A stretch of DNA of 60,468 nt from an uncultured Gammaproteobacteria bacterium (GCA_964366085.1 CAYISM010000002.1:1-60468), one strand, 5' to 3'; positions 14,444 through 23,027 are shown, numbered from the stretch's first letter. The notes: generated from the letters alone by a model not told the origin. Program-made: numbers and translations.

Positions 14444-15499
14444 CTAAATTGTTGCTAACCATAATCCGAAAATTGCCAATATTACTCCGACAAGCCAGGC
14501 TCTCATTACAATCTTTGGCTCCTCCCAACCCATTGCCAAAAATGTGTGGTGGATGGGGGCAAGAGGAAAAATTGGCCTTTTTAAAACTCGCCATCCGAAA
14601 ATTTGGATTGCGGAGGAAGCTGCCTCTAGGGCAAATATGCCTCCTATGATAAATAGTGCCGCGATATTGCCCGTAAGAAGCCCAATCACAGCAATCATTG
14701 CACCAAATGACAATGCTCCGGCATCCCCCAGAAAAATTCTGGCCGGCCAAACATTGAAGTAAAGAAAGGAAATAATTGTTCCGATCCAAAGAGCAATAAA
14801 AATTGAAAGTGGGGTATCCAAATTTCCCGCGGCGATTATCCAAAAAGCAAAAAGGTAAATCATAAGAAGTCCCGAAGCAAGACCGTCAAGACCGTCCGTA
14901 ATATTAAACGCATTCGTAAAGAAAACGATTACAAAAGCTGCGAAGGGAATATACCAAAGCCCCATATCAATAACTTTATTAATAAATGGTATATGAACAA
15001 TTTGAATTCCCAAAAATTTATAAAGAGTAAAAGCAATAATTAAGGCCAAAATCCATTGCAGCGAAAATTTCTGAAACCTGCTCATCCCTATCCACATCCC
15101 CAGCGCTCCCTGCCGAGCCCTACCGAAAATTTTAATCAAATCGTCCGACAAGCCCAAAAGACCAAAGGAAATGAAAGTGAAAAATATAATCAAGAGTTCA
15201 TATTTTAAAGAATGACTTAGCTCGATAAATACTCCCAAGTAGGAAATTAAGGGGAAAATTGCAGAAAAAAGTAAAGTTACTATGGCAATCAGTAGTATCC
15301 CGCCACCCGTCGGCGTACCTGCTTTTTTATCGTGAAGTTTATCAAAAAGAGGAACTTTCCCTTTTTTTGGAGCTTCCTTTTGCCGAACAATATTTAGTTT
15401 ATAAAGAAAGTCTATGAATGGAACTACAAGAAGGCTTGAGATGGCAAATGCAAAGAGTAGTAATCCTAAAGCCAAAGGCAGATTAGCCGGAATATTCAT
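14444..15499 (-). CDS. mraY: Phospho-N-acetylmuramoyl-pentapeptide transferase MraY
   Basis: 351 aa with NAFNITDGLDGLA and the C-terminal PIHHTF motif. Confidence 0.95.
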   Translation of the reverse strand: MNIPANLPLALGLLLFAFAISSLLVVPFIDFLYKLNIVRQKEAPKKGKVPLFDKLHDKKAGTPTGGGILLIAIVTLLFSAIFPLISYLGVFIELSHSLKYELLIIFFTFISFGLLGLSDDLIKIFGRARQGALGMWIGMSRFQKFSLQWILALIIAFTLYKFLGIQIVHIPFINKVIDMGLWYIPFAAFVIVFFTNAFNITDGLDGLASGLLMIYLFAFWIIAAGNLDTPLSIFIALWIGTIISFLYFNVWPARIFLGDAGALSFGAMIAVIGLLTGNIAALFIIGGIFALEAASSAIQIFGWRVLKRPIFPLAPIHHTFLAMGWEEPKIVMRAWLVGVILAIFGLWLATI

Positions 15500-15645: not shown

Positions 15646-16899
15646 TTATTTTAAGGTTTCAACAAGTTTTTCTAGTCCAATTGACCTTGATCCTTTAACC
15701 AAAACCACAGAATTTCTATTTATTAAACTTTTTACCGAATCGACTGCCGAGATGGAATCCTTTATCCAAAAACAATTATTTCTTTTCATTCTCTTGACGA
15801 CGATATTATAAGTGTACTTTGATGCTTTGCCTACGCATATTAACTTATCGATTTTTGAAGTTAAAATTAATCGGCCAATTTCCTGGTGAGACAATTTTTC
15901 TAACTTACCAAGCTCTAACATGTCCCCAAAGACAAAAATTCTCTCTCTTTCGCCAGGAAACGCCAAAAGTGTGGTAATAGCTTCAGCCGCAGCCGCAGGA
16001 TTGTTGTTGTATGAATCATCCAAAACTAAAGCACCCGATTTAAGTTTTATAACAGTCATTCTGTGCTCGGGCATTTCGTAATTTTCCAAACCCTTTTTTA
16101 TTTCACTATTTGAAAAGCCCAAAGTACTCGCCGCCGCCGAAGCCGCAAGAGCGTTTTCTACGAAATGCTTACCAAACACCGGCAACTGAATAGAAATTTT
16201 ACCCGAGCTGTTAACTAGAACAAATTTTGTTTTCAATTGATCGGTAAGCTGAATTCTTTCTGAGAAAACATCTCCTTTTTCGCCAAAGGTGACAAGTTTT
16301 GCCCTGATCCTTTTTGATATTTGATTGAAAAACTTATTATTTGTTCCGAGAATCGCTAAAGCATCTACCGGAAGGTACCTAACTAATTTTGACTTTTCTT
16401 TGGCAACCCCATCGAGCCCACCAAAATATTCCGTATGTGTCGGATGTATATTAATTATAATTCCAATATCCGGCCTCGCCAGCCACAGATAAAAATCCAT
16501 TTCTCCGGGGTATTCAACTCCCATTTCAAGAACTAAATATTTCGTAGTTGGCTTACAAGACAGAATTGTAGTTGGAATATTGTAAACCGGGTCTATATTC
16601 GCAAACGAGGCAACCGTTTCTCCCTTTTGTTCCAATATGGAAAAAATCATTTCCTTTGTGGAAGTTTTGCCTGTACTACCAGTGATCCCAACGATTTTTA
16701 GTCCGAAAAATTCCCGCAAGGATTTGATGTAATATTTAGAAATTCTTCTTTTAATGGGATGTACAATCCATTTGGCAAAATAGTCTCTCCAAATTTGATA
16801 AACATTTCCAGAATTGTCCTTCGAGGAGATAAGTATGTGCTCAAGTGGAAGCTTGGGAGTAACCCACCATCTAACTAAAGTCAAAAAATATTTGTTCAT
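15646..16899 (-). CDS. murF: UDP-MurNAc-tripeptide--D-Ala-D-Ala ligase MurF
   Basis: 417 aa with the GITGSTGKTSTKEM P-loop. The domain order and position next to mraY fit MurF. Confidence 0.88.
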   Translation of the reverse strand: MNKYFLTLVRWWVTPKLPLEHILISSKDNSGNVYQIWRDYFAKWIVHPIKRRISKYYIKSLREFFGLKIVGITGSTGKTSTKEMIFSILEQKGETVASFANIDPVYNIPTTILSCKPTTKYLVLEMGVEYPGEMDFYLWLARPDIGIIINIHPTHTEYFGGLDGVAKEKSKLVRYLPVDALAILGTNNKFFNQISKRIRAKLVTFGEKGDVFSERIQLTDQLKTKFVLVNSSGKISIQLPVFGKHFVENALAASAAASTLGFSNSEIKKGLENYEMPEHRMTVIKLKSGALVLDDSYNNNPAAAAEAITTLLAFPGERERIFVFGDMLELGKLEKLSHQEIGRLILTSKIDKLICVGKASKYTYNIVVKRMKRNNCFWIKDSISAVDSVKSLINRNSVVLVKGSRSIGLEKLVETLK

Positions 16900-16907
16900 T
16901 ATTTCCC

Positions 16908-17711
16908 TTAATCTAATATCTTAAGTCTTCGAAATTCCAATGTTCCTTCTTTATATAGCTGTTGCCAGGATTTTCCTATCTCTGGTTTAAAACCAAAGTG
17001 TGGCTTTTCTCGATCGGCGGAAAAATTGCTTAGATTTACGCCATCCGGAACTACACTCACCTCTGACTGAGTAATCATAAATTCGCCATTCTGTCTTACA
17101 ACCAGTGCTATATGTCCGTATTCATCATTTCCTTTTTTAAAACAAATGATGTCTAAAGAACTTACATTTTGAGGCATAATAACTTTTGAAGCTTCCCCTG
17201 CAAAAACAAAAACCCCGGCACGGTAAGTTGTTTGAAATTTAGGGTTTTCCCAACTTAAGGAATCATTAAACTGCTGCAACTTACCAATTTTACTAAATGC
17301 ATAACTTAATGTTTGATAAATAAAACCGGAACAGTCTATTCCAAGTCCGTATAATTTCATGAATTGCCTAATTACTTCTGGCGAAGCGTTCCTGAGAGAT
17401 AGTCCCATTTTTTCTGAGAGAGTCGTTGTAGCAAAAGTGATCTCTTTTGGTGTCCCTTTACCCTGATACCATCCATATGGAATCTTTCTTTCTTTGTATG
17501 CGTCATAGAAAGCTTTCAATTTTTCACTTGATACTCCTACATTTCGCATTAGTTGGGTAAAAAATCTCGCCGGAGTATTTATAAAATATGGAGTTAAAAC
17601 TTTCTTGCCATAAATATCCAATTCTTGATAATCTCGAATTCGTTCCATGCAAAGCTCAGTTAGAAACTCTAATCTACTGGAAAGGGTTTTTTCTGTCATG
17701 AATTTATTCAT
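16908..17711 (-). CDS. Cytoplasmic NlpC/P60-like cysteine enzyme (paralog 1) with an unknown N-terminal domain
   Basis: 267 aa with GLGIDCSGFIYQ (catalytic Cys box) and DEYGHIALVV (His box), and no signal peptide or TM helix. It overlaps the stop of the upstream Mur ligase by 8 nt; an alternative ATG is at 17699. Confidence 0.65.
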   Translation of the reverse strand: MNKFMTEKTLSSRLEFLTELCMERIRDYQELDIYGKKVLTPYFINTPARFFTQLMRNVGVSSEKLKAFYDAYKERKIPYGWYQGKGTPKEITFATTTLSEKMGLSLRNASPEVIRQFMKLYGLGIDCSGFIYQTLSYAFSKIGKLQQFNDSLSWENPKFQTTYRAGVFVFAGEASKVIMPQNVSSLDIICFKKGNDEYGHIALVVRQNGEFMITQSEVSVVPDGVNLSNFSADREKPHFGFKPEIGKSWQQLYKEGTLEFRRLKILD

Positions 17712-18993
17712 TAACCAAAGCTCCTTTGACAGCTTTTATATCGCTCCAAGGATATTCTTTATCTCCTATTGCCATACTTTTTTCATGTCCTTTGCCGCAA
17801 ATTACTATTGTATCTCCCCTTCTTGCAATTTTCTGGATTACAAAAGAAATTGCTTCCCCTCTTTCTGGTATCCGAATGAACAAATACCGAATACTGCGAT
17901 GATTTAAATCATCAAAGTAATTTTTTGTTACTTCCTTAGTTTTAACCTTTTTTGTTCCCCCTACCATTTGGTCTATTATTTTATTAACATCTTCATTTCT
18001 AGGGTCTTCGGCAGTAAAAACTGAAACGTCGGCTAATCGAGTTGAAATTTCTCCCATCATAGCTCTTTTGGCTACATCTCTTTCCCCAGCGCAGCCGAAT
18101 ACAGAAATTAGTTTACCTCTTTTGTGAACCTGCTTATGCAGTGCCTTTAGAACTTGCTCCAACGCGTTAGGGGTGTGCGCAAAATCTACGATCACGCGAA
18201 GCCCTTTACTGTTTTTAATTTCTTCCATTCTTCCGTGAACACCCTGAAAAGATTTTATTGAATCAACTATCGTATTGTTGTCAATGCCTAAATTTCTTGC
18301 AATAACATAAGCAGCGGTTGCATTTGAATAATTATAAAACTCGCCTTTAAATCTTTCCTTTATTGCCCTTAGTACTTTCGGAGTTGCCGAGAAAACTGAA
18401 TAAGGAACAATTTTAACGTCTTTTTTTATATATTTTCTTATTTTTTCGTATGAGCTATCATCTCTATTTAAAATAGCCTTTTTTGAAAGATTAAAAAGTT
18501 TCGCCTTGGCCTTTATGTAGTTTTCAAAACTTTTGTGATAGTCAAGATGCTCATGGGTAATATTTGTCAGGACAGATATTTCAAAGTTAATTCCGAAAAA
18601 CCTACATTGTTCTAGAACATGGGAAGTTACTTCTAAAATCGCATATTCGCATCCCCTTTTAACCATAAGCCTCAAAAATTTATGTAACAAAAATGGTTCT
18701 GGGCTAGTAGTATGAAAACCCGTGTCATAGGTGTTATTACCTATCTTTGCACCAACAGTTGAAATAAGTCCAGTTCTTTTCCCTCCTGCCCTTAGAATTG
18801 AACATATTAAGTTTGACGTGGTCGTCTTACCGTCAGTTCCAGTTACCCCGATTATTTTAAGTTCTTTATGAGGAAAACCATAGAAGATCATAGCGGCCTC
18901 TGCACGGAGTCTGTGGTAGAAATTCTTTAACAGTCCAGAGATAAATTCTTTCAATAAACTAAGATTCCTCATAATTAAAAAGAATTTTATCAT
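17704..18993 (-). CDS. MurE-family Mur ligase lacking the N-terminal UDP-binding domain
   Basis: 429 aa. The IIGVTGTDGKTTTS P-loop sits only about 45 aa from the N-terminus. It also has TNITHEHLDYH, VDFAHTPNAL, EDPRNED and a GKGHE C-terminus. The closest in-window relative is murE at 19768..21282. Confidence 0.75.
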   Translation of the reverse strand: MIKFFLIMRNLSLLKEFISGLLKNFYHRLRAEAAMIFYGFPHKELKIIGVTGTDGKTTTSNLICSILRAGGKRTGLISTVGAKIGNNTYDTGFHTTSPEPFLLHKFLRLMVKRGCEYAILEVTSHVLEQCRFFGINFEISVLTNITHEHLDYHKSFENYIKAKAKLFNLSKKAILNRDDSSYEKIRKYIKKDVKIVPYSVFSATPKVLRAIKERFKGEFYNYSNATAAYVIARNLGIDNNTIVDSIKSFQGVHGRMEEIKNSKGLRVIVDFAHTPNALEQVLKALHKQVHKRGKLISVFGCAGERDVAKRAMMGEISTRLADVSVFTAEDPRNEDVNKIIDQMVGGTKKVKTKEVTKNYFDDLNHRSIRYLFIRIPERGEAISFVIQKIARRGDTIVICGKGHEKSMAIGDKEYPWSDIKAVKGALVNE

Positions 18994-19017
18994 TTTTGTG
19001 ATAAATAGTTCCTTAAA

Positions 19018-19026
19018 TGCTAAAAT
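19018..19026 (+). promoter_or_regulatory. Extended -10 (TGcTAAAAT) 6 nt upstream of the GTG at 19033
   Basis: Reads aaaTGcTAAAATtagataGTG with no SD. Confidence 0.45.
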
Positions 19027-19032
19027 TAGATA

Positions 19033-19803
19033 GTGAAAATCTCACTACCACCCAAAACTTCTGCCACGATAGAAAGATATCTTAACCTCAAGATAGGCCG
19101 GTTTAAGATAAGGTGTCCTTATTTTCAAAACATAATGGACAAAAAAGGTCGTAGTGTCTTTATTGGTAAGGGAGACCCATTTGAAATAGAAAAAGAGGCA
19201 AACAGTCTTTTTGGGGGATTAGCAAAGAACCCCGATAATTTCGACGAGAACTCAATAAGACACTATATGTTAATGGCGGGATTGGGTGTTGATTGTTCCG
19301 GATTCGTAGCAAACGTTCTTGCTGAATTTTTGAAGGAGAAAAAACTAGGTTCGATCAGAAAACATATTAAACCGGAGATGAAAACGTTACTTACCCCACT
19401 AACATTTTTATTAAGGCCCATAACCAATATCTCTGCAAATGTGTTAACTAATGATATTAATGGTATAAAGATAGACAATTTGAATAAAGTTATGCCAGGA
19501 GATCTAATTAGATTTGGGCGAAAGCACGTAGCATTGATAGGGGAAATAAAAAAGATTGACGGAATTCTAAAGGAAATCACTTATTTCCACAGCACCTGCG
19601 ATTATCTCGATCAACAAGGGGTAAGAAAAGGAAGCATTATCATCTCTGATCACAAATTCCCTCTTGAGAAACAGGTTTGGAATGAAACCTATCGCGGTAA
19701 AAATTGGAGCTATCAAGATTATATAAGCGCAAAAGAGGGAGACAGAGGAATAAGAAGAATAAAAACTCTAGCCTCTTTTTATTCTAAACACTCCACCATC
19801 TAA
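19033..19803 (+). CDS. Cytoplasmic NlpC/P60-like cysteine enzyme (paralog 2)
   Basis: 256 aa with GLGVDCSGFVANV and PGDLIRFGRKHVALIGEI (a typical NlpC/P60 GDL..F...HV box). It shares CPYFxN, GKGxPxEI and a C-terminal RRxK with paralog 1. Its 3' end overlaps murE convergently by 36 nt. Confidence 0.65.
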   Translation: MKISLPPKTSATIERYLNLKIGRFKIRCPYFQNIMDKKGRSVFIGKGDPFEIEKEANSLFGGLAKNPDNFDENSIRHYMLMAGLGVDCSGFVANVLAEFLKEKKLGSIRKHIKPEMKTLLTPLTFLLRPITNISANVLTNDINGIKIDNLNKVMPGDLIRFGRKHVALIGEIKKIDGILKEITYFHSTCDYLDQQGVRKGSIIISDHKFPLEKQVWNETYRGKNWSYQDYISAKEGDRGIRRIKTLASFYSKHSTI

Positions 19804-21282
19804 AGCAGTTTTGACAGCCTCCTCGTCGGACCACAAATAATCAACTCCGTTATAGTCAATATATTTTTCGTGACCCTTTCCGCAAATAACCACAATGTCT
19901 CCTTGTCTTGCAAGATTCTGTATTGCAAAAGATATTGCTTCACCCCTATCGGAAATTTCGTAAGAAGTGTGATTCTTGTTATTTACTCTTCTTATACCCG
20001 TCGAAATATCTTTAATTATTTTTCTCTCGTCCTCATTACCAGGGTCAACAGATGTAAGAATAGATAAATTAGAAAACTTGGCAGCAATTTCACCCATTAA
20101 AGCTCTTTTGGCTACATCTCTTTCCCCCTCAGCACCAGTAATAACTATAAGTTTATGCTTCCCCTTCTCTTTACCTAAGGCTTTTAGCACATTCTCAAGA
20201 CCATTTGGGGTATGAGCATAGTCTATGTAAATCTCAAAACCTTTATTGTTTTCGACCCTTTGCAATCTACCCTTTGGAAGCGGAAGTTCTGGTAAAGACG
20301 ATATAATAGCGTCCCAGGGAACACCCAATTGTCGTACAGTTGCCACAGCTGCCAAGACGTTTGCCGCATTGTGTTCACCAAATAATTTGACTGTCGAGTC
20401 AAAAACTCCTCCCTCACCTCTAATACGTAAATTCATGCTGCGATTTTTCCGACTAATAGCATTAACGTAGTAATCCGAAATACTCGTCGGACTCAGTGAG
20501 TAGCTTACAATTCTACAACCTTGACCTACTACCTGTGACATATAATCAAAAGATTCGTCATCTCTATTAAGGACCGCAACATCAATATTTTTAAACAATT
20601 TGGCCTTAGCAGCCATATAATCTTTCATAGAACCATGGTAATCTATGTGTTCGTGAGGCGTTATATTTGTCAAAACACCAAACCTAAATTTGACACCTGC
20701 AACGCGTCCCTGATCAAGAGCGTGGGAAGAGGTTTCCAATACTACATATTTACACCCATACTGAACCATCTCTGCCAAAAATTTTTGAACGTCTAAAACG
20801 GCCGGCGTCGTCAGTCTGCCAGTATCATAAAGATGCTCGCCTATCCTTACACCAACAGTCGAAATTAGTCCGGTTTCTATACCAACCCCATTCAAAAGAA
20901 AATAAATACCATTTGCAGTAGTTGTTTTTCCGTCAGTACCTGTTACTCCTATAACAACTAAATTCTCTGATGGGTAGTCATAAAACGCCGACGCCAGCCT
21001 ACCAAGAGCCTCTCTCGAATCTTTCACCTTAACATAAATTAAACAGTCAGAAGCTAAATCAAACTCGGTTGGTGGCTTTTCTCCGACTATCACACTTGCG
21101 CCAGAACGAACGGCTTGGGAAATAAATCGATGTGAATCAACTCGTACTCCACGTTTTGCGACAAACATACTGCCTTCGCTGACTTTCGTTGAATCATCCT
21201 GTATATCTTTCACAACCCCACTATTATCCCCAAATAATTCATATCTATCTAATGAACTCAATAACAAAGAAAGTTCTTTCAT
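19768..21282 (-). CDS. murE: UDP-MurNAc-L-Ala-D-Glu--diamino acid ligase MurE (full length)
   Basis: The N-terminal domain is present (DSTKVSEGSMFVAKRGVRVDSHRFISQAVRSGASVIV). It also has VIGVTGTDGKTTTA and GKGHE. The ATG at 21282 is preferred; the ORF-track start at 21399 overlaps ftsI. Confidence 0.88.
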   Translation of the reverse strand: MKELSLLLSSLDRYELFGDNSGVVKDIQDDSTKVSEGSMFVAKRGVRVDSHRFISQAVRSGASVIVGEKPPTEFDLASDCLIYVKVKDSREALGRLASAFYDYPSENLVVIGVTGTDGKTTTANGIYFLLNGVGIETGLISTVGVRIGEHLYDTGRLTTPAVLDVQKFLAEMVQYGCKYVVLETSSHALDQGRVAGVKFRFGVLTNITPHEHIDYHGSMKDYMAAKAKLFKNIDVAVLNRDDESFDYMSQVVGQGCRIVSYSLSPTSISDYYVNAISRKNRSMNLRIRGEGGVFDSTVKLFGEHNAANVLAAVATVRQLGVPWDAIISSLPELPLPKGRLQRVENNKGFEIYIDYAHTPNGLENVLKALGKEKGKHKLIVITGAEGERDVAKRALMGEIAAKFSNLSILTSVDPGNEDERKIIKDISTGIRRVNNKNHTSYEISDRGEAISFAIQNLARQGDIVVICGKGHEKYIDYNGVDYLWSDEEAVKTALDGGVFRIKRG

Positions 21283-21314: not shown

Positions 21315-23027
21315 TCAATTTTCCGGCTGGATTCCAAAATATGGGAAAAGATCGCGGGCAATTGAGTACCAAGCCGGGGCTGCGGTTTCGGAGGCCCAAG
21401 GCGAAGTTGTTGGCTCCTGAAGAGTAAGAAGCATTATAAATTTAGGGTCGTAAGCGGGAGTAAAACCGATAAATGATGCTATTGTTTTTTCTTTGTCGTA
21501 ATGACCCGCAATCGGAATTTGAGCGGTTCCGGTTTTTGCAGCTACTTTAAATCCTGGAATTCTCGCCCATTTCGATTCACCTTTTTCCGCTGCCTCAACC
21601 ATCATGTCTGTCATTTCTCTTGCAGCTTTTTCGGATATAACCCTTTCGCCCACTTGAGGCTTTACGTCATTCTCCCAAGCATCTCCTACCAGCTTGCCAA
21701 CTACTTGTGGAGTAACAAGCACACCGCCATTTGCAATGGCTGCAACCGCTTTAATCATTTGAATCGGTGTTACCGCAACTCCCTGGCCAAATGAAGCAGT
21801 TGCCAGATCAACTATGTTCCAAGTTTCTTTGGGTCTTAATTTAGGACTAACCTCTCCTTGTAAATCAATTGCCGTGGGCTTTCCAATTGCGAATTTGTCA
21901 AGATAATCATAAAGAGCCTCCGCTCCAAGTTTTTGTCCGACAAAGATCATTCCTACGTTGTCAGAGTGAATTATGACATCCGTAATTGTTGAGTCGGGAA
22001 AATATTTATTATTCCAAGTTTCTATCTTATATTTATCGACTCTGACGGGTCCATCACAAATATCACATTTAGTATCCGGGGTAACTACACCGGCATCCAG
22101 TGCCGACGCCATTATCAGGACCTTAAAAATTGATCCCGGCTCAAAAGTAAAACTTATCGCGGGATTTTTAAAAAACTCATCTGACCACTCCCAATATTTT
22201 GAAGGATCATATGACGGGTATGAGCTCATCCCTAAAATTGCTCCGTTTTTCGGGTTCATTACAATTGCAGTTCCCCCACGGGCTCCATATTTTTCAATTG
22301 CATCTTTGAGTCTTTTATCCAGCGTTAACTGCACGCTTTTATCAACATGTGTAAATAAATCAACCCCCCCAATTGCCGATACTTCCTTTGTTTTGTCCGT
22401 AACGATAGCCGTTCCTTTTGCATCTTTTTCGTGAGCTAAAAATCCCGGCTTTCCCGAAAGTGGAAGATTATAATATCCCTCAAGACCAAAATATCCCTGG
22501 TCCTGACCCTCCAGATCTTTTCCGACAAAACCAAGCAGTTGCGCGGCTGAAGAGGCCTCAGGGTAAAACCTTGCTTCTTGTTTTTCAAATCCAATCCCTT
22601 CGATTTTTAGATTCTCAATCGTATTTTTTACTTCATTTGTAATTCTTTGTTTTAAGGGAACCCAAACAACTTCCCTTTTTGAAATAAGATTTACAAGTCT
22701 ATCGACCTCGGCAAGTACGTCATCTTTTATGGAAGGATCATCAACAAAAAATGGTGCAAGTAAATTTGCAATATCTTTGTTGGGTCTTTTAAGTTCAGGG
22801 ATTGAAGCAAAGATAAGCCAAGCATCGGTTTTTGCAGCCAGTAAACTTCCGTCTGAGGCCAAAATATTTCCCCGAGGAGCGGAAACTGCGCTTTCTGATT
22901 TGTATTGATATCTGGCTTGAACTTTCAAATCCTTAGCCCGAATTATCTGCCAATAAAAAAGCTTACTGATTAAACTGGCAAAAAAAACAAAGAAGACAAG
23001 GGAAAGAAGTTTAAGTCTAATCGGCAT
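21315..23027 (-). CDS. ftsI: Class B penicillin-binding protein (FtsI/PBP2-type transpeptidase)
   Basis: 570 aa with an N-terminal TM helix and the SxxK (GSIFK), SxN (HSDN) and KTGTA motifs. Confidence 0.92.
   Translation of the reverse strand: MPIRLKLLSLVFFVFFASLISKLFYWQIIRAKDLKVQARYQYKSESAVSAPRGNILASDGSLLAAKTDAWLIFASIPELKRPNKDIANLLAPFFVDDPSIKDDVLAEVDRLVNLISKREVVWVPLKQRITNEVKNTIENLKIEGIGFEKQEARFYPEASSAAQLLGFVGKDLEGQDQGYFGLEGYYNLPLSGKPGFLAHEKDAKGTAIVTDKTKEVSAIGGVDLFTHVDKSVQLTLDKRLKDAIEKYGARGGTAIVMNPKNGAILGMSSYPSYDPSKYWEWSDEFFKNPAISFTFEPGSIFKVLIMASALDAGVVTPDTKCDICDGPVRVDKYKIETWNNKYFPDSTITDVIIHSDNVGMIFVGQKLGAEALYDYLDKFAIGKPTAIDLQGEVSPKLRPKETWNIVDLATASFGQGVAVTPIQMIKAVAAIANGGVLVTPQVVGKLVGDAWENDVKPQVGERVISEKAAREMTDMMVEAAEKGESKWARIPGFKVAAKTGTAQIPIAGHYDKEKTIASFIGFTPAYDPKFIMLLTLQEPTTSPWASETAAPAWYSIARDLFPYFGIQPEN

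What the first reader, a model, noticed from the sequence alone, without database searches (positions are those of the whole stretch)
16908..21282. Duplicated module (cytoplasmic NlpC/P60-like Cys enzyme next to a MurE-family ligase) inside the dcw cluster, in place of murD/murC
Between ftsI and murF the cluster holds two MurE-type ligases. One is full length (19768..21282). The other (17704..18993) has its GTDGKTTT P-loop only about 45 aa from the N-terminus, so it appears to lack the UDP-MurNAc-binding domain 1.

Each ligase sits next to a member of one divergent protein family (16908..17711 and 19033..19803). These proteins have clear NlpC/P60 Cys and His boxes (GLG[IV]DCSGF; GDLIRFGRKHVAL / YGHIALVV). 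They also share an unfamiliar N-terminal region of about 110 aa (CPYFxN, GKGxPxEI) and have no signal peptide or TM helix. Paralog 1 overlaps its ligase by 8 nt, which suggests translational coupling. Paralog 2 is convergent with murE and overlaps it by 36 nt.

No murC, murD, murB or ddl is in this window. NlpC/P60 enzymes are mostly secreted wall hydrolases. The cytoplasmic ones act in murein-peptide recycling (the YkfC type, with the Mpl ligase) or as acyl/peptidyl transferases. A Mur-ligase fold without the UDP domain, paired with a Cys enzyme, also recalls the MurT-GatD logic. This could be an undescribed stem-peptide editing, salvage or alternative peptide-ligation system. That interpretation is inference.
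Basis: partly seen in the sequence, partly recalled or inferred. Interest (0 to 1): 0.75.

Follow-up and report, generated by a model that had tools for sequence, protein, structure and literature searches.

The report
Cytoplasmic NlpC/P60 enzymes in cell-wall operon
In the cell-wall precursor operon of a Patescibacteria genome sit two members of an uncharacterised family of cytoplasmic cysteine amidases, and this family turns out to be linked across the phylum to MraY, Mur ligases and an ATP-grasp ligase, while the "truncated" MurE is the lineage's normal MurE and the full-length neighbour is the odd one.

Summary

**Ligases**
- The 429-aa ligase lacks domain 1, and its start is not mis-called.
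- Domain-1-less MurE is common in Patescibacteria. It keeps every conserved MurE residue (EDPR motif) and is the only MurE in syntenic relatives. It is therefore the ordinary MurE, not a MurT-like enzyme.
- The full-length neighbour is the divergent paralogue. It has VDPG instead of EDPR and differs at 16 of 97 conserved sites. Only a close relative shares it.

**NlpC/P60-like proteins**
- The two ~260-aa proteins are ancient paralogues (subfamilies A and B), not a recent duplication.
- They belong to an unnamed, almost Patescibacteria-only family of about 900 clusters. Members have a P60-type Cys-His-(Gln/His) core, a unique ~115-aa helical N-domain and no export signal.
- In 67 loci, mraY lies directly downstream in 14.
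- An ATP-grasp ligase lies directly upstream of subfamily B in 33 of 48 loci and is fused to it in two proteins. A ThrC-like PLP enzyme and a LysW-like protein ending in EEEK usually accompany it.
- Cell-wall clusters that carry this set show no MurD or MurL nearby.

**Best reading:** a cytoplasmic amidase that edits or salvages stem-peptide intermediates alongside amide ligases. The substrate is unknown.

The parts
19768..21282 (-). Full-length (three-domain) but divergent MurE paralogue ('MurE*'). It has VDPG where the family has EDPR. The ORF could also start at TTG 21399.
   Evidence: Pfam Mur_ligase N+M+C and TIGR01085 at 469 bits. VDPG occurs in only 3 of 203 Patescibacterial MurE homologues. 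The protein deviates at 16 of 97 columns that are at least 90% conserved, including H156R, D405N, E412V and R415G. The orthologue P0291 sits in the same arrangement in L090.
19033..19803 (+). NlpC/P60-like cytoplasmic Cys enzyme, subfamily B ('NlpB'), 256 aa. It is convergent with MurE* (36-nt overlap) and divergent from the short MurE (39-nt gap). It lies antisense inside the minus-strand dcw gene string.
   Evidence: Family alignment with invariant C, H, GKG, N and R. Full-length matches to subfamily-B genes in many loci, up to 174 bits. No export signal. A promoter-like site at 18998-19026 lies just upstream; this is a consensus match only.
17704..18993 (-). Domain-1-less MurE, 429 aa. This is the lineage-typical MurE, with a canonical EDPR motif.
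   Evidence: for architecture and start. for the spread of short forms. for conserved residues (only 4 conservative deviations out of 97). Searches show that the short MurE is the only MurE in the syntenic clusters L087, L088 and L089.
16908..17711 (-). NlpC/P60-like cytoplasmic Cys enzyme, subfamily A ('NlpA'), 267 aa. Its start overlaps the short MurE stop by 8 nt.
   Evidence: AF2 model with pLDDT 93.9 and pTM 0.90. Foldseek matches only the C-terminal half to Spr/MepS, LytE and YkfC-like structures. A profile search of the PDB hits MepS/Spr at E = 6e-5 over the Cys and His boxes. Overlap and Shine-Dalgarno sequence. Homologues P0001-P0031; 897 clusters in the exhaustive search.
15646..16899 (-). 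murF, 417 aa. The N-terminal domain is not recognisable.
   Evidence: TIGR01143 at 315 bits, aligned only from profile position 67; Pfam finds M and C domains only.
14444..15499 (-). mraY. In other genomes this gene lies directly downstream of the NlpC-like gene.
   Evidence: mraY is directly downstream on the same strand in 14 of 67 loci, with gaps of -16 to 113 nt.

Best explanation
This is the core of a Microgenomates-type (Patescibacteria) dcw cluster.

Shown.
- The 429-aa ligase is the organism's ordinary MurE, in the domain-1-less form common in this phylum.
- The full-length neighbour is an extra, divergent MurE paralogue. Its amino-acid-binding motif is altered (EDPR to VDPG).
- The two ~260-aa proteins are members of two ancient subfamilies of a Patescibacteria-restricted, cytoplasmic NlpC/P60 family. 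The catalytic half is P60/MepS-like, with Cys127 and His200 and a third residue that is Gln in subfamily A and His in subfamily B. A family-specific helical N-domain carries invariant Asn45 and Gly-Lys-Gly84-86, and the C-terminus carries Arg261-Arg262.

Inferred.
- These proteins are thiol amidohydrolases, or possibly acyl-transfer enzymes. They act in the cytoplasm on a gamma-glutamyl or diamino-acid amide bond of soluble stem-peptide intermediates: UDP-MurNAc-peptides, salvaged murein peptides, or a branch on them.
- They work as the hydrolytic or editing partner of ATP-dependent amide ligases, at the MurE/MurF stage, just before MraY commits the precursor to the membrane.
- In most genomes the partner ligase of subfamily B is an ATP-grasp enzyme, giving a synthetase/amidase pair as in glutathionylspermidine synthetase/amidase. 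In this genome NlpB sits next to the divergent MurE paralogue, and NlpA is translationally coupled to the ordinary MurE.
- The cationic invariant residues (Lys85, Arg261/262) probably bind the carboxylates or the pyrophosphate of the substrate.
For: Catalytic core and fold.
- Invariant DCSG Cys, His, and a Gln/His/Asn column.
- The profile aligns both boxes to MepS/Spr.
- Foldseek's top hits are all NlpC/P60 peptidoglycan peptidases, with probability 0.96-1.0 and TM 0.46-0.51 normalised to the target.
- Confident single-globule model.

Cytoplasmic location. No signal peptide or TM segment.

Genomic wiring, from 67 loci with a confident family member.
- mraY lies directly downstream in 14, often overlapping. 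A random gene in a genome of about 1000 genes would do this about 0.1% of the time.
- A peptidoglycan gene lies within 10 kb in 23.
- The gene sits between murE and murF in the window, L090 and L001.
- The order is NlpA-mraY-short murE in L017 and L020.
- The ATP-grasp ligase lies directly upstream of subfamily B in 33 of 48 loci. Natural ATP-grasp~NlpB fusions exist: P0139 (623 aa) and P0166 (718 aa).
- In relatives, the slot just upstream of mraY is otherwise filled by known stem-peptide-branching enzymes: FemAB in L091 and L093, and ATE_C/Fem-like genes in several loci.

Ligase assignments..
Against: - No substrate has been tested. The N-domain has no structural relative, so specificity cannot be read off.
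- Nineteen subfamily-A loci are mostly in variable, non-cell-wall contexts; only about 6 are near peptidoglycan genes.
- In the window NlpB is convergent with MurE*, not co-transcribed with it.
- The window holds no ATP-grasp, PLP or LysW-like gene, so the partner of NlpB here is unknown.
- Chlamydial YkfC, the best-studied cytoplasmic NlpC/P60, acts on free peptides and does not interfere with precursor biosynthesis (PMC9928106). Action on UDP-linked substrates would therefore be unprecedented.
- The association counts come from related genomes and are not phylogenetically independent.
Confidence: 0.45

Rival explanations
1. Salvage or recycling peptidase, as a functional analogue of YkfC or LdcA. 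NlpA/NlpB cleave murein tri/tetrapeptides taken up from the cell's own wall or from a host. The cut would be at gamma-D-Glu-diamino acid, or at the diamino acid-D-Ala bond in the manner of an LD-carboxypeptidase. The pieces would then be re-used by MurE/MurF or a MurC/Mpl-like ligase. This overlaps with the best explanation but restricts the substrate to free peptides.
For: The closest sequence and fold relatives are MepS (DD-endopeptidase/LD-carboxypeptidase) and YkfC-like enzymes. A cytoplasmic NlpC/P60 does exactly this in genome-reduced Chlamydia (PMC9928106). The gene order short murE-NlpA-murF fits a product that MurF would use. In clusters with subfamily B, the MurC-like ligase scores almost as well on the Mpl model as on the MurC model.
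Against: No SH3b domains as in YkfC. No peptide transporter or epimerase genes recur nearby. This reading does not explain the fusion to an ATP-grasp ligase, or the ThrC-like and LysW-like partners.
Confidence: 0.22
2. Release hydrolase of a carrier-protein pathway. The LysW-like Zn-ribbon protein with a conserved EEEK C-terminus would carry an amino acid attached by the ATP-grasp ligase (LysX-like logic). The ThrC-like PLP enzyme would modify or racemise the tethered amino acid. NlpB would cleave the gamma-glutamyl or isopeptide link, releasing a wall-specific amino acid (D-Glu, a D- or diamino acid) for the Mur ligases.
For: LysW-like genes lie next to the PLP gene in 21 loci, and their C-termini end in EEEK or a variant (DEGK, ETEK, IEEK). 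The set PALP-(MTase)-ATP-grasp-NlpB recurs. P60-type enzymes typically cut gamma-glutamyl amide bonds (established knowledge of the family).
Against: None of these partner genes is in the window. Subfamily A occurs without them (L017, L020). The carrier tail ends in Lys, not in Glu as in true LysW. No kinase, reductase or aminotransferase of known carrier pathways is present. A PLP enzyme needs a free alpha-amino group.
Confidence: 0.13
3. MurT-GatD-like amidotransferase. The domain-1-less ligase would act on a lipid-linked or free peptide, and the Cys enzyme would supply ammonia or an activated group.
For: The analogy is superficial: a Mur-ligase fold without domain 1 lies next to, and is translationally coupled to, a Cys-His enzyme.
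Against: The short MurE is the only MurE in the clusters of L087, L088 and L089, and it keeps canonical MurE residues and C-domain. It scores 218 bits against MurE structures and 30 bits against MurT. The partner has a papain-like fold, not a class-I glutaminase fold. NlpA also follows a full-length MurE in L001. Short MurE occurs without any NlpC-like neighbour (L087, L088).
Confidence: 0.04
4. No special function: two ordinary wall hydrolases that happen to lie in the operon, or decaying genes.
For: Pfam scores are below the cut-offs.
Against: The catalytic residues are invariant across about 900 clusters. There is no export signal. Gene order with mraY and the ATP-grasp ligase is tight and recurrent, and fusions exist. 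The ORFs are intact and full length relative to homologues.
Confidence: 0.03

Closest known systems
YkfC (Bacillus; Chlamydia trachomatis YkfC, PMC9928106): cytoplasmic NlpC/P60 gamma-D-Glu-L-diamino-acid endopeptidase of murein-peptide recycling
   Same: Cytoplasmic. P60-type Cys-His papain-like core. Works on stem peptides. Retained in a genome-reduced bacterium.
   Different: YkfC has N-terminal SH3b domains that select a free L-Ala N-terminus. This family instead has a unique helical ~115-aa N-domain with PYFxN and GKGxP motifs. YkfC is not encoded next to mraY, Mur ligases or an ATP-grasp ligase. Sequence similarity is marginal.
MepS/Spr (E. coli): periplasmic NlpC/P60 DD-endopeptidase/LD-carboxypeptidase
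   Same: Best sequence and fold match. GIDCSGF and GDL...H boxes align, with a Cys-His-His triad as in subfamily B.
   Different: MepS is an exported lipoprotein of about 130 aa with no extra domain, and it acts on the sacculus. This family is cytoplasmic and twice as long.
Glutathionylspermidine synthetase/amidase (CHAP amidase fused to an ATP-dependent synthetase); from established knowledge, not tested here beyond a weak CHAP hit
   Same: A papain-like Cys-His amidase physically coupled to an ATP-dependent amide ligase. The ATP-grasp~NlpB fusions P0139 and P0166 suggest a make-and-break pair on one amide bond.
   Different: The domain order is reversed. The substrate is unrelated. The CHAP match here is only E = 3.6e-4, below the cut-off, and trypanothione synthetase ranks 43rd in Foldseek.
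MurT-GatD lipid II amidotransferase
   Same: A Mur-ligase fold lacking the UDP-binding domain 1, paired with a Cys enzyme.
   Different: The short ligase here is a bona fide MurE by score, residues and synteny. The partner has the wrong fold. See the membership test.
Aslfm/Racfm of Enterococcus faecium (ATP-grasp D-aspartate ligase plus racemase, adding a branch to UDP-MurNAc-pentapeptide); from established knowledge
   Same: An ATP-grasp ligase, plus an enzyme that could supply a D-amino acid, encoded with precursor genes. This is a possible model for the ATP-grasp + ThrC-like pair that accompanies subfamily B.
   Different: There is no NlpC/P60 partner and no LysW-like protein. The racemase there is PLP-independent. 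Homology of the ATP-grasp proteins was not tested.

Membership tests
NlpC/P60 superfamily (P60-like branch) | Catalytic Cys at the start of a helix in a D-C-S-G type motif | tested here: met
   D126-C127-S128-G129 is invariant in 31 of 31 sequences and aligns to GIDCSGF of MepS/Spr.
NlpC/P60 superfamily (P60-like branch) | Catalytic His on a beta-strand after a (G)DL motif, plus a third polar residue (His/Gln/Asn/Glu) on the next strand | tested here: met
   D187 and H200 are invariant. The third column is Gln in subfamily A and His (once Asn) in subfamily B, followed by a near-invariant Ser. The geometry was not checked because no coordinates were available.
NlpC/P60 superfamily (P60-like branch) | Papain-like alpha+beta fold | tested here: met
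   AF2 pLDDT 93.9. Foldseek's top 10 are all NlpC/P60 structures, with probability up to 1.00 and TM 0.46-0.51 normalised to the target. Only the C-terminal half aligns.
NlpC/P60 superfamily (P60-like branch) | Reaches Pfam PF00877 gathering score (23 bits) | tested here: not met
   15.6 and 13.1 bits for the two window proteins. 13 of 31 family members match at E < 0.01. The family is a remote, unmodelled branch. There is no NCBIfam hit.
YkfC-type recycling endopeptidase | N-terminal SH3b domains gating the active site | tested here: not met
   No SH3 hit. The N-terminal 115 aa are helical with one hairpin and have no structural match.
YkfC-type recycling endopeptidase | Hydrolysis of L-Ala-gamma-D-Glu-diamino acid peptides | not testable with these tools
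   Needs an enzyme assay.
[quoted passage not shown] | Score above the TIGR01085 cut-off; P-loop; middle and C-terminal domains | tested here: met
   377 bits against a cut-off of 257. Mur_ligase_M and Mur_ligase_C present. Best PDB match is T. maritima MurE 4bub at 218 bits.
[quoted passage not shown] | N-terminal UDP-binding domain 1 | tested here: not met
   Matches start at profile position ~88. No extension is possible. The same holds for 65 of 203 close Patescibacterial MurE homologues, including the only MurE in the L087-L089 clusters.
[quoted passage not shown] | Conserved amino-acid-site motif (E. coli DNPR; EDPR in Patescibacteria) | tested here: met
   EDPR in the short protein and in 191 of 203 homologues. 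The full-length paralogue has VDPG, so it does not meet this feature.
MurT-GatD | MurT-specific C-terminal DUF1727 domain and best similarity to MurT | tested here: not met
   The C-domain is an ordinary Mur_ligase_C. MurT structures score 30 bits against 218 bits for MurE.
MurT-GatD | Partner is a class-I glutamine amidotransferase | tested here: not met
   The partner has an NlpC/P60 fold.
LysW/LysX amino-group carrier system (considered for the subfamily-B gene set, outside the window) | Zn-ribbon carrier with an acidic tail ending in Glu; RimK/LysX-type ATP-grasp; LysZ/Y/J/K enzymes | tested here: inconclusive
   PF21344 Zn_ribbon_LysW hits. The tails end in EEEK rather than Glu. The ATP-grasp is PF02655 with weak RimK similarity. 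No LysZ/Y/J/K homologues were seen.

The most novel reading that the evidence does not exclude
The subfamily-B enzyme, its ATP-grasp ligase, the ThrC-like PLP enzyme and the LysW-like EEEK protein may form an undescribed route that replaces MurD together with its D-Glu supplier (MurI or MurL). The Glu-containing part of the stem peptide would be made off-line, as a dipeptide or on the small carrier. It would then be corrected or released by the NlpC/P60 enzyme and attached by a divergent MurC/Mpl-like ligase. In the window's genome, the divergent MurE paralogue (VDPG) next to NlpB could play the ligase role.

Basis.
- All 11 loci that combine a cell-wall gene cluster with this gene set lack MurD and MurL within 20 kb.
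- All comparable clusters without the set have MurD. L017, L020 and L088 also have MurL, and L092 has a racemase instead (MurI-type, Asp_Glu_race).
- In Woesebacterial L089 the set occupies the position that MurL-MurD holds in L088.
- The MurC-like ligase in these clusters scores below the MurC cut-off and nearly as high on the Mpl model.
Probability: 0.15. Interest if true: 0.9.

Novelty: new variant of a known kind. Interest (0 to 1): 0.6.

Why it matters
Cytoplasmic peptidoglycan precursor synthesis is regarded as one of the most invariant pathways in bacteria, and it is a major drug target.

This work points to a phylum-wide protein family of about 900 sequence clusters with no name in Pfam or NCBIfam. 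It places a thiol amidase inside the precursor pathway, often fused or coupled to an ATP-grasp ligase and to mraY. That implies an editing, salvage or alternative ligation step in the wall synthesis of Patescibacteria, organisms that depend on hosts for most building blocks.

It also shows that the UDP-binding domain 1 of MurE, and apparently of MurF, is dispensable or replaced in many of these bacteria. This is a structural question in its own right.

If the MurD-bypass reading holds, it would be a new way to build the stem peptide. If only the conservative reading holds, this is a new cytoplasmic branch of a well-known hydrolase superfamily.

Tried and rejected
1. **Mis-called start of the 429-aa ligase: rejected.** Stop codons lie 16-17 codons upstream and further upstream still, and there is no domain-1 remnant.
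2. **Recent tandem duplication of a ligase + NlpC module: rejected.** The NlpC-like pair is 26% identical and falls in two old subfamilies. Each ligase is closer to orthologues elsewhere than to the other. The orientations differ.
3. **The NlpC-like N-domain substitutes in trans for MurE domain 1: no support.** NlpA also follows a full-length MurE (L001). Short MurE occurs without any NlpC-like neighbour (L087, L088). The N-domain is helical and matches nothing.
4. **MurT-GatD analogy: rejected.** See the membership test.
5. **AF2 model of the natural ATP-grasp~NlpB fusion P0166: no result.** The aim was to find the ligase's structural relatives. The alignment was too shallow: the ATP-grasp part had pLDDT of roughly 25-50 and overall pTM was 0.42. 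No fold search was made on it.
6. **Sequence search of the PDB with the ATP-grasp protein:** nothing significant. The PLP enzyme resembles threonine synthases and, more weakly, Asp/Ser racemases.
7. **Literature searches.** Topics were Patescibacteria/CPR with peptidoglycan, NlpC, MraY, MurE, MurD and LysW. No description of this family, of short MurE or of the gene set was found.
8. **Search of the window for the partner genes (ATP-grasp, PLP, LysW-like) and for other Mur ligases:** none. An ATE_C-like gene was not among the window's matches either.
9. **Rfam and tRNA scans of the window:** nothing.
10. **A genome-wide test of MurD absence** could not be run.

Full report
**1. What is in the window**

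The minus strand carries a dcw cluster: mraZ, rsmH, ftsL, ftsI (21315-23027), a full-length MurE (19768-21282), a 429-aa MurE-like ligase (17704-18993), a 267-aa protein (16908-17711), murF (15646-16899), mraY, ftsW, murG, ftsQ, ftsA and ftsZ. A 256-aa gene lies on the plus strand (19033-19803) between the two ligases.

- The 504-aa protein has all three Mur-ligase domains.
- The 429-aa protein has only the middle and C-terminal domains. It still scores 377 bits on the murE model, and alignments begin near profile position 88.
- The upstream frame is closed by many stop codons.

The overlaps of 8 nt (ATGAATAA, with AGGAG upstream) and 36 nt are real. No other Mur ligase lies in the 60 kb.

**2. 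The ligases: which one is odd?**

Homologues of the short protein number in the thousands and are almost all Patescibacterial. Sources that name them call them MurE. About half of the best 120 lack PF01225 and are 386-440 aa long.

In an alignment of 203 close homologues of the two window ligases, the length before the P-loop region is bimodal: 11-39 aa in 65 proteins and 78-135 aa in 138. On a neighbour-joining tree the short forms make one clade of 42 plus at least nine small clades. The window's short protein sits next to long forms of 477-479 aa. Domain 1 has therefore been lost repeatedly.

Relatives share the window's upstream synteny (DUF4012, recO, glyS, mraZ, rsmH, ftsL, ftsI).
- The short MurE is the only MurE in the cluster in these relatives:
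  - L087: ftsI-sMurE-murF-mraY-ftsW-murG-ftsQAZ.
  - L088: a complete set of murA, sMurE, murC, murB, murL, murD, pgeF, ddl, alr, murF and mraY.
  - L089.

- Other relatives have only a long MurE (L091, L092, L093).
- Only the window and its close relative L090 have both.

At the position of the E. coli DNPR motif, 191 of 203 proteins have EDPR, including the window's short MurE. The window's long MurE has VDPG, which is shared only with its L090 orthologue and one other protein. Over 97 columns that are at least 90% conserved, the short protein deviates four times, all conservatively. The long one deviates 16 times, including H156R, D405N, E412V and R415G.

The short protein is therefore the lineage's ordinary MurE, and the full-length one is a divergent extra paralogue. 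murF here also lacks a recognisable N-domain: 417 aa, aligned from profile position 67. It is shorter still in relatives, at 356 and 385 aa. Loss of N-domains is thus a lineage trend rather than a mark of a special enzyme.

**3. The NlpC/P60-like proteins**

The 267-aa protein ("NlpA") found only 31 homologues by word-seeded search. A profile of these, run against 1.8 billion representatives, found 897 clusters at E <= 1e-3 and 545 at E <= 1e-10. Nearly all are about 250-aa single-domain proteins.

The alignment shows two subfamilies.
- Subfamily A has a ~27-aa insert after PYFxN. The window's 16908-17711 belongs here.
- Subfamily B lacks the insert. The window's 19033-19803 belongs here.

Invariant residues are N45, G84, K85, G124, D126, C127, S128, G129, D187, H200, G224 and R262. 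The column expected to hold the third catalytic residue is Gln in A and His in B.

Structure and database matches:
- AF2 gives a confident single-globule model, with pLDDT 93.9 and pTM 0.90.
- Foldseek matches only the C-terminal half, to Spr/MepS, LytE and YkfC-like structures. The helical N-terminal ~115 aa match nothing.
- A profile search of PDB sequences aligns both catalytic boxes to MepS.
- No Pfam or NCBIfam model reaches its cut-off.
- There is no signal peptide or TM segment.

**4. Gene neighbourhoods**

A scan of one genome per GTDB species gave 80 loci. Almost all are labelled Patescibacteria (WWE3, Woese-, Dojka-, Sacchari-, Magasanik-, Ames-, Levy-, Roizman-, Colwell- and Nomurabacteria). 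A few carry other labels, probably from binning.

I called ORFs and classified them with reference proteins from the window and from L088 and L089. Of 67 loci with a confident member (19 A, 48 B):
- mraY lies directly downstream on the same strand in 14, with gaps of -16 to 113 nt.
- A ~475-aa ATP-grasp protein (PF02655) lies directly upstream of subfamily B in 33 of 48.
- A ~300-aa threonine-synthase-like PLP enzyme is in 33 loci.
- A small methyltransferase is in about 18.
- A peptidoglycan gene lies within 10 kb in 23.

(for the family assignments)

Two proteins, P0139 (623 aa) and P0166 (718 aa), are natural fusions of this ATP-grasp domain with a subfamily-B domain.

Small LysW-like Zn-ribbon genes lie next to the PLP gene in 21 loci. 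Their C-termini end in EEEK or a variant (DEGK, ETEK, IEEK). An ATE_C/arginyltransferase-like (Fem-like) gene follows short murE or mraY in many of these loci.

Subfamily A is found as NlpA-mraY-short murE in L017 and L020, and as murE-NlpA-murF-mraY in WWE3 L001. Most A loci, however, have variable neighbours.

**5. A complementary pattern**

Eleven loci combine a cell-wall cluster (murC-like, murE, murF, mraY, murA/B) with the ATP-grasp/PLP/NlpB set: L027, L033, L038, L044, L045, L058, L072, L081, L084, L085 and L089. None shows MurD or MurL within the 20 kb held.

Comparable clusters without the set all contain MurD (L017, L020, L088, L091, L092). Three of them (L017, L020, L088) also have MurL, and L092 has MurI.

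In L089 the set sits where L088 has murL-murD.

The MurC-like ligase in these clusters scores 235-263 bits on the MurC model, whose cut-off is 335, and 200-221 bits on the Mpl model. L088's MurC scores 392 and 217.

This is suggestive, but it rests on 20-kb windows and on related genomes. I could not scan whole genomes.

**6. How it most likely works**

Shown:
- An intact P60-type catalytic core.
- A cytoplasmic location.
- A unique N-domain with cationic invariant residues.
- Tight, recurrent coupling to mraY and to amide ligases, including fusions.

Inferred:
- The enzymes hydrolyse, or transfer across, an amide bond of a soluble stem-peptide intermediate.
- They act as the editing or salvage partner of ATP-dependent ligases at the MurE/MurF/MraY stage.

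The nearest functional precedents are cytoplasmic YkfC in Bacillus and Chlamydia (PMC9928106) and, for the ligase-amidase pairing, glutathionylspermidine synthetase/amidase (established knowledge).

Rival readings are:
- pure recycling of free peptides;
- a LysW-like carrier pathway in which NlpB is the release hydrolase;

**7. Verdict**

It is partly wrong: the truncated ligase is the normal MurE, the full-length one is aberrant, there was no module duplication, and there is no MurT-GatD logic.

In novelty terms this is a new variant of a known kind.

Interest is 0.6. It would be higher if the MurD-bypass reading (probability about 0.15) proves true.

Noticed in passing
window 19768-21282: The full-length MurE has VDPG where 191 of 203 Patescibacterial MurE proteins have EDPR (E. 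coli DNPR). It differs at 16 of 97 highly conserved positions. Only its L090 orthologue (P0291) and P0305 share VDPG. It is probably a neofunctionalised paralogue with altered amino-acid specificity.
   Followed up: partly
window 15646-16899; L087 11154-12224; L088 19393-20550: murF in this lineage also lacks a recognisable N-terminal domain (417, 356 and 385 aa; the TIGR01143 match starts at profile position 67). Loss of Mur-ligase N-domains therefore seems to be a lineage-wide trend, not something specific to MurE.
   Followed up: partly
L005 4825-5016, L089 13951-14142, L033 3583-3756 and 18 other loci: Small LysW-like Zn-ribbon proteins (~55-63 aa) lie next to the ThrC-like PLP gene. Their C-termini end in EEEK or a variant (DEGK, ETEK, IEEK), which differs from the Glu-terminal tail of true LysW. 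They could be a carrier or a substrate of the ATP-grasp/NlpB pair.
   Followed up: partly
P0139 (623 aa), P0166 (718 aa); L068 8450-10657 (735 aa): P0139 and P0166 are natural fusions of the ~470-aa ATP-grasp ligase with a C-terminal subfamily-B NlpC/P60-like domain. The L068 protein is also long, but only its NlpC/P60 part was recognised.
   Followed up: yes
L089 11990-13315, L072 18484-19902, L027 13384-14853: The MurC-like ligases in clusters with the ATP-grasp/NlpB set score below the MurC cut-off and almost as high on the Mpl model. The MurC of L088, a cluster with MurD and MurL, scores far above the cut-off.
   Followed up: partly
L088 13701-16474; L017, L020: MurL (UDP-MurNAc-L-Ala-L-Glu epimerase) plus a MurD-type ligase are encoded in Microgenomates dcw clusters. 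This suggests that the alternative L-Glu-then-epimerise route known from Xanthomonas is used in these Patescibacteria.
   Followed up: no
P0197, P0199, P0236, P0239, P0243, P0246, P0247, P0355 and others; L093 10001-12286: MurE proteins of 635-774 aa are fused at the C-terminus to an NTP_transferase domain (PF00483/PF12804, GlmU/MurU-like). They are common in Woesebacteria-type genomes and occur with both short and long N-termini.
   Followed up: no
L089 11218-12003; L038 8976-9731; L072 17722-18471; L081, L084, L085, L086 after mraY: An ATE_C/arginyltransferase-like (Fem-like fold) gene of about 215-260 aa is coupled to short murE or to mraY. It is probably an aminoacyl-tRNA-dependent enzyme that adds a branch to the stem peptide. 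FemAB plus DegT take the same slot in L091 and L093.
   Followed up: partly
window 18994-19049: Only 39 nt separate the divergent starts of the short murE and NlpB. A promoter-like site (GTGATA-17-TAAAAT, TG-extended) ends 7 nt before the NlpB GTG. A weak terminator-like hairpin lies on the minus strand at 19049-19029. NlpB lies antisense within the dcw gene string, so either the operon is interrupted here or NlpB is transcribed against it.
   Followed up: no
L008 9956-11492; L009 5506-7097: In two Woesebacteria genomes the subfamily A and B genes are directly adjacent (the A copy in L009 looks frameshifted) and away from cell-wall genes. The two subfamilies may act together.
   Followed up: no
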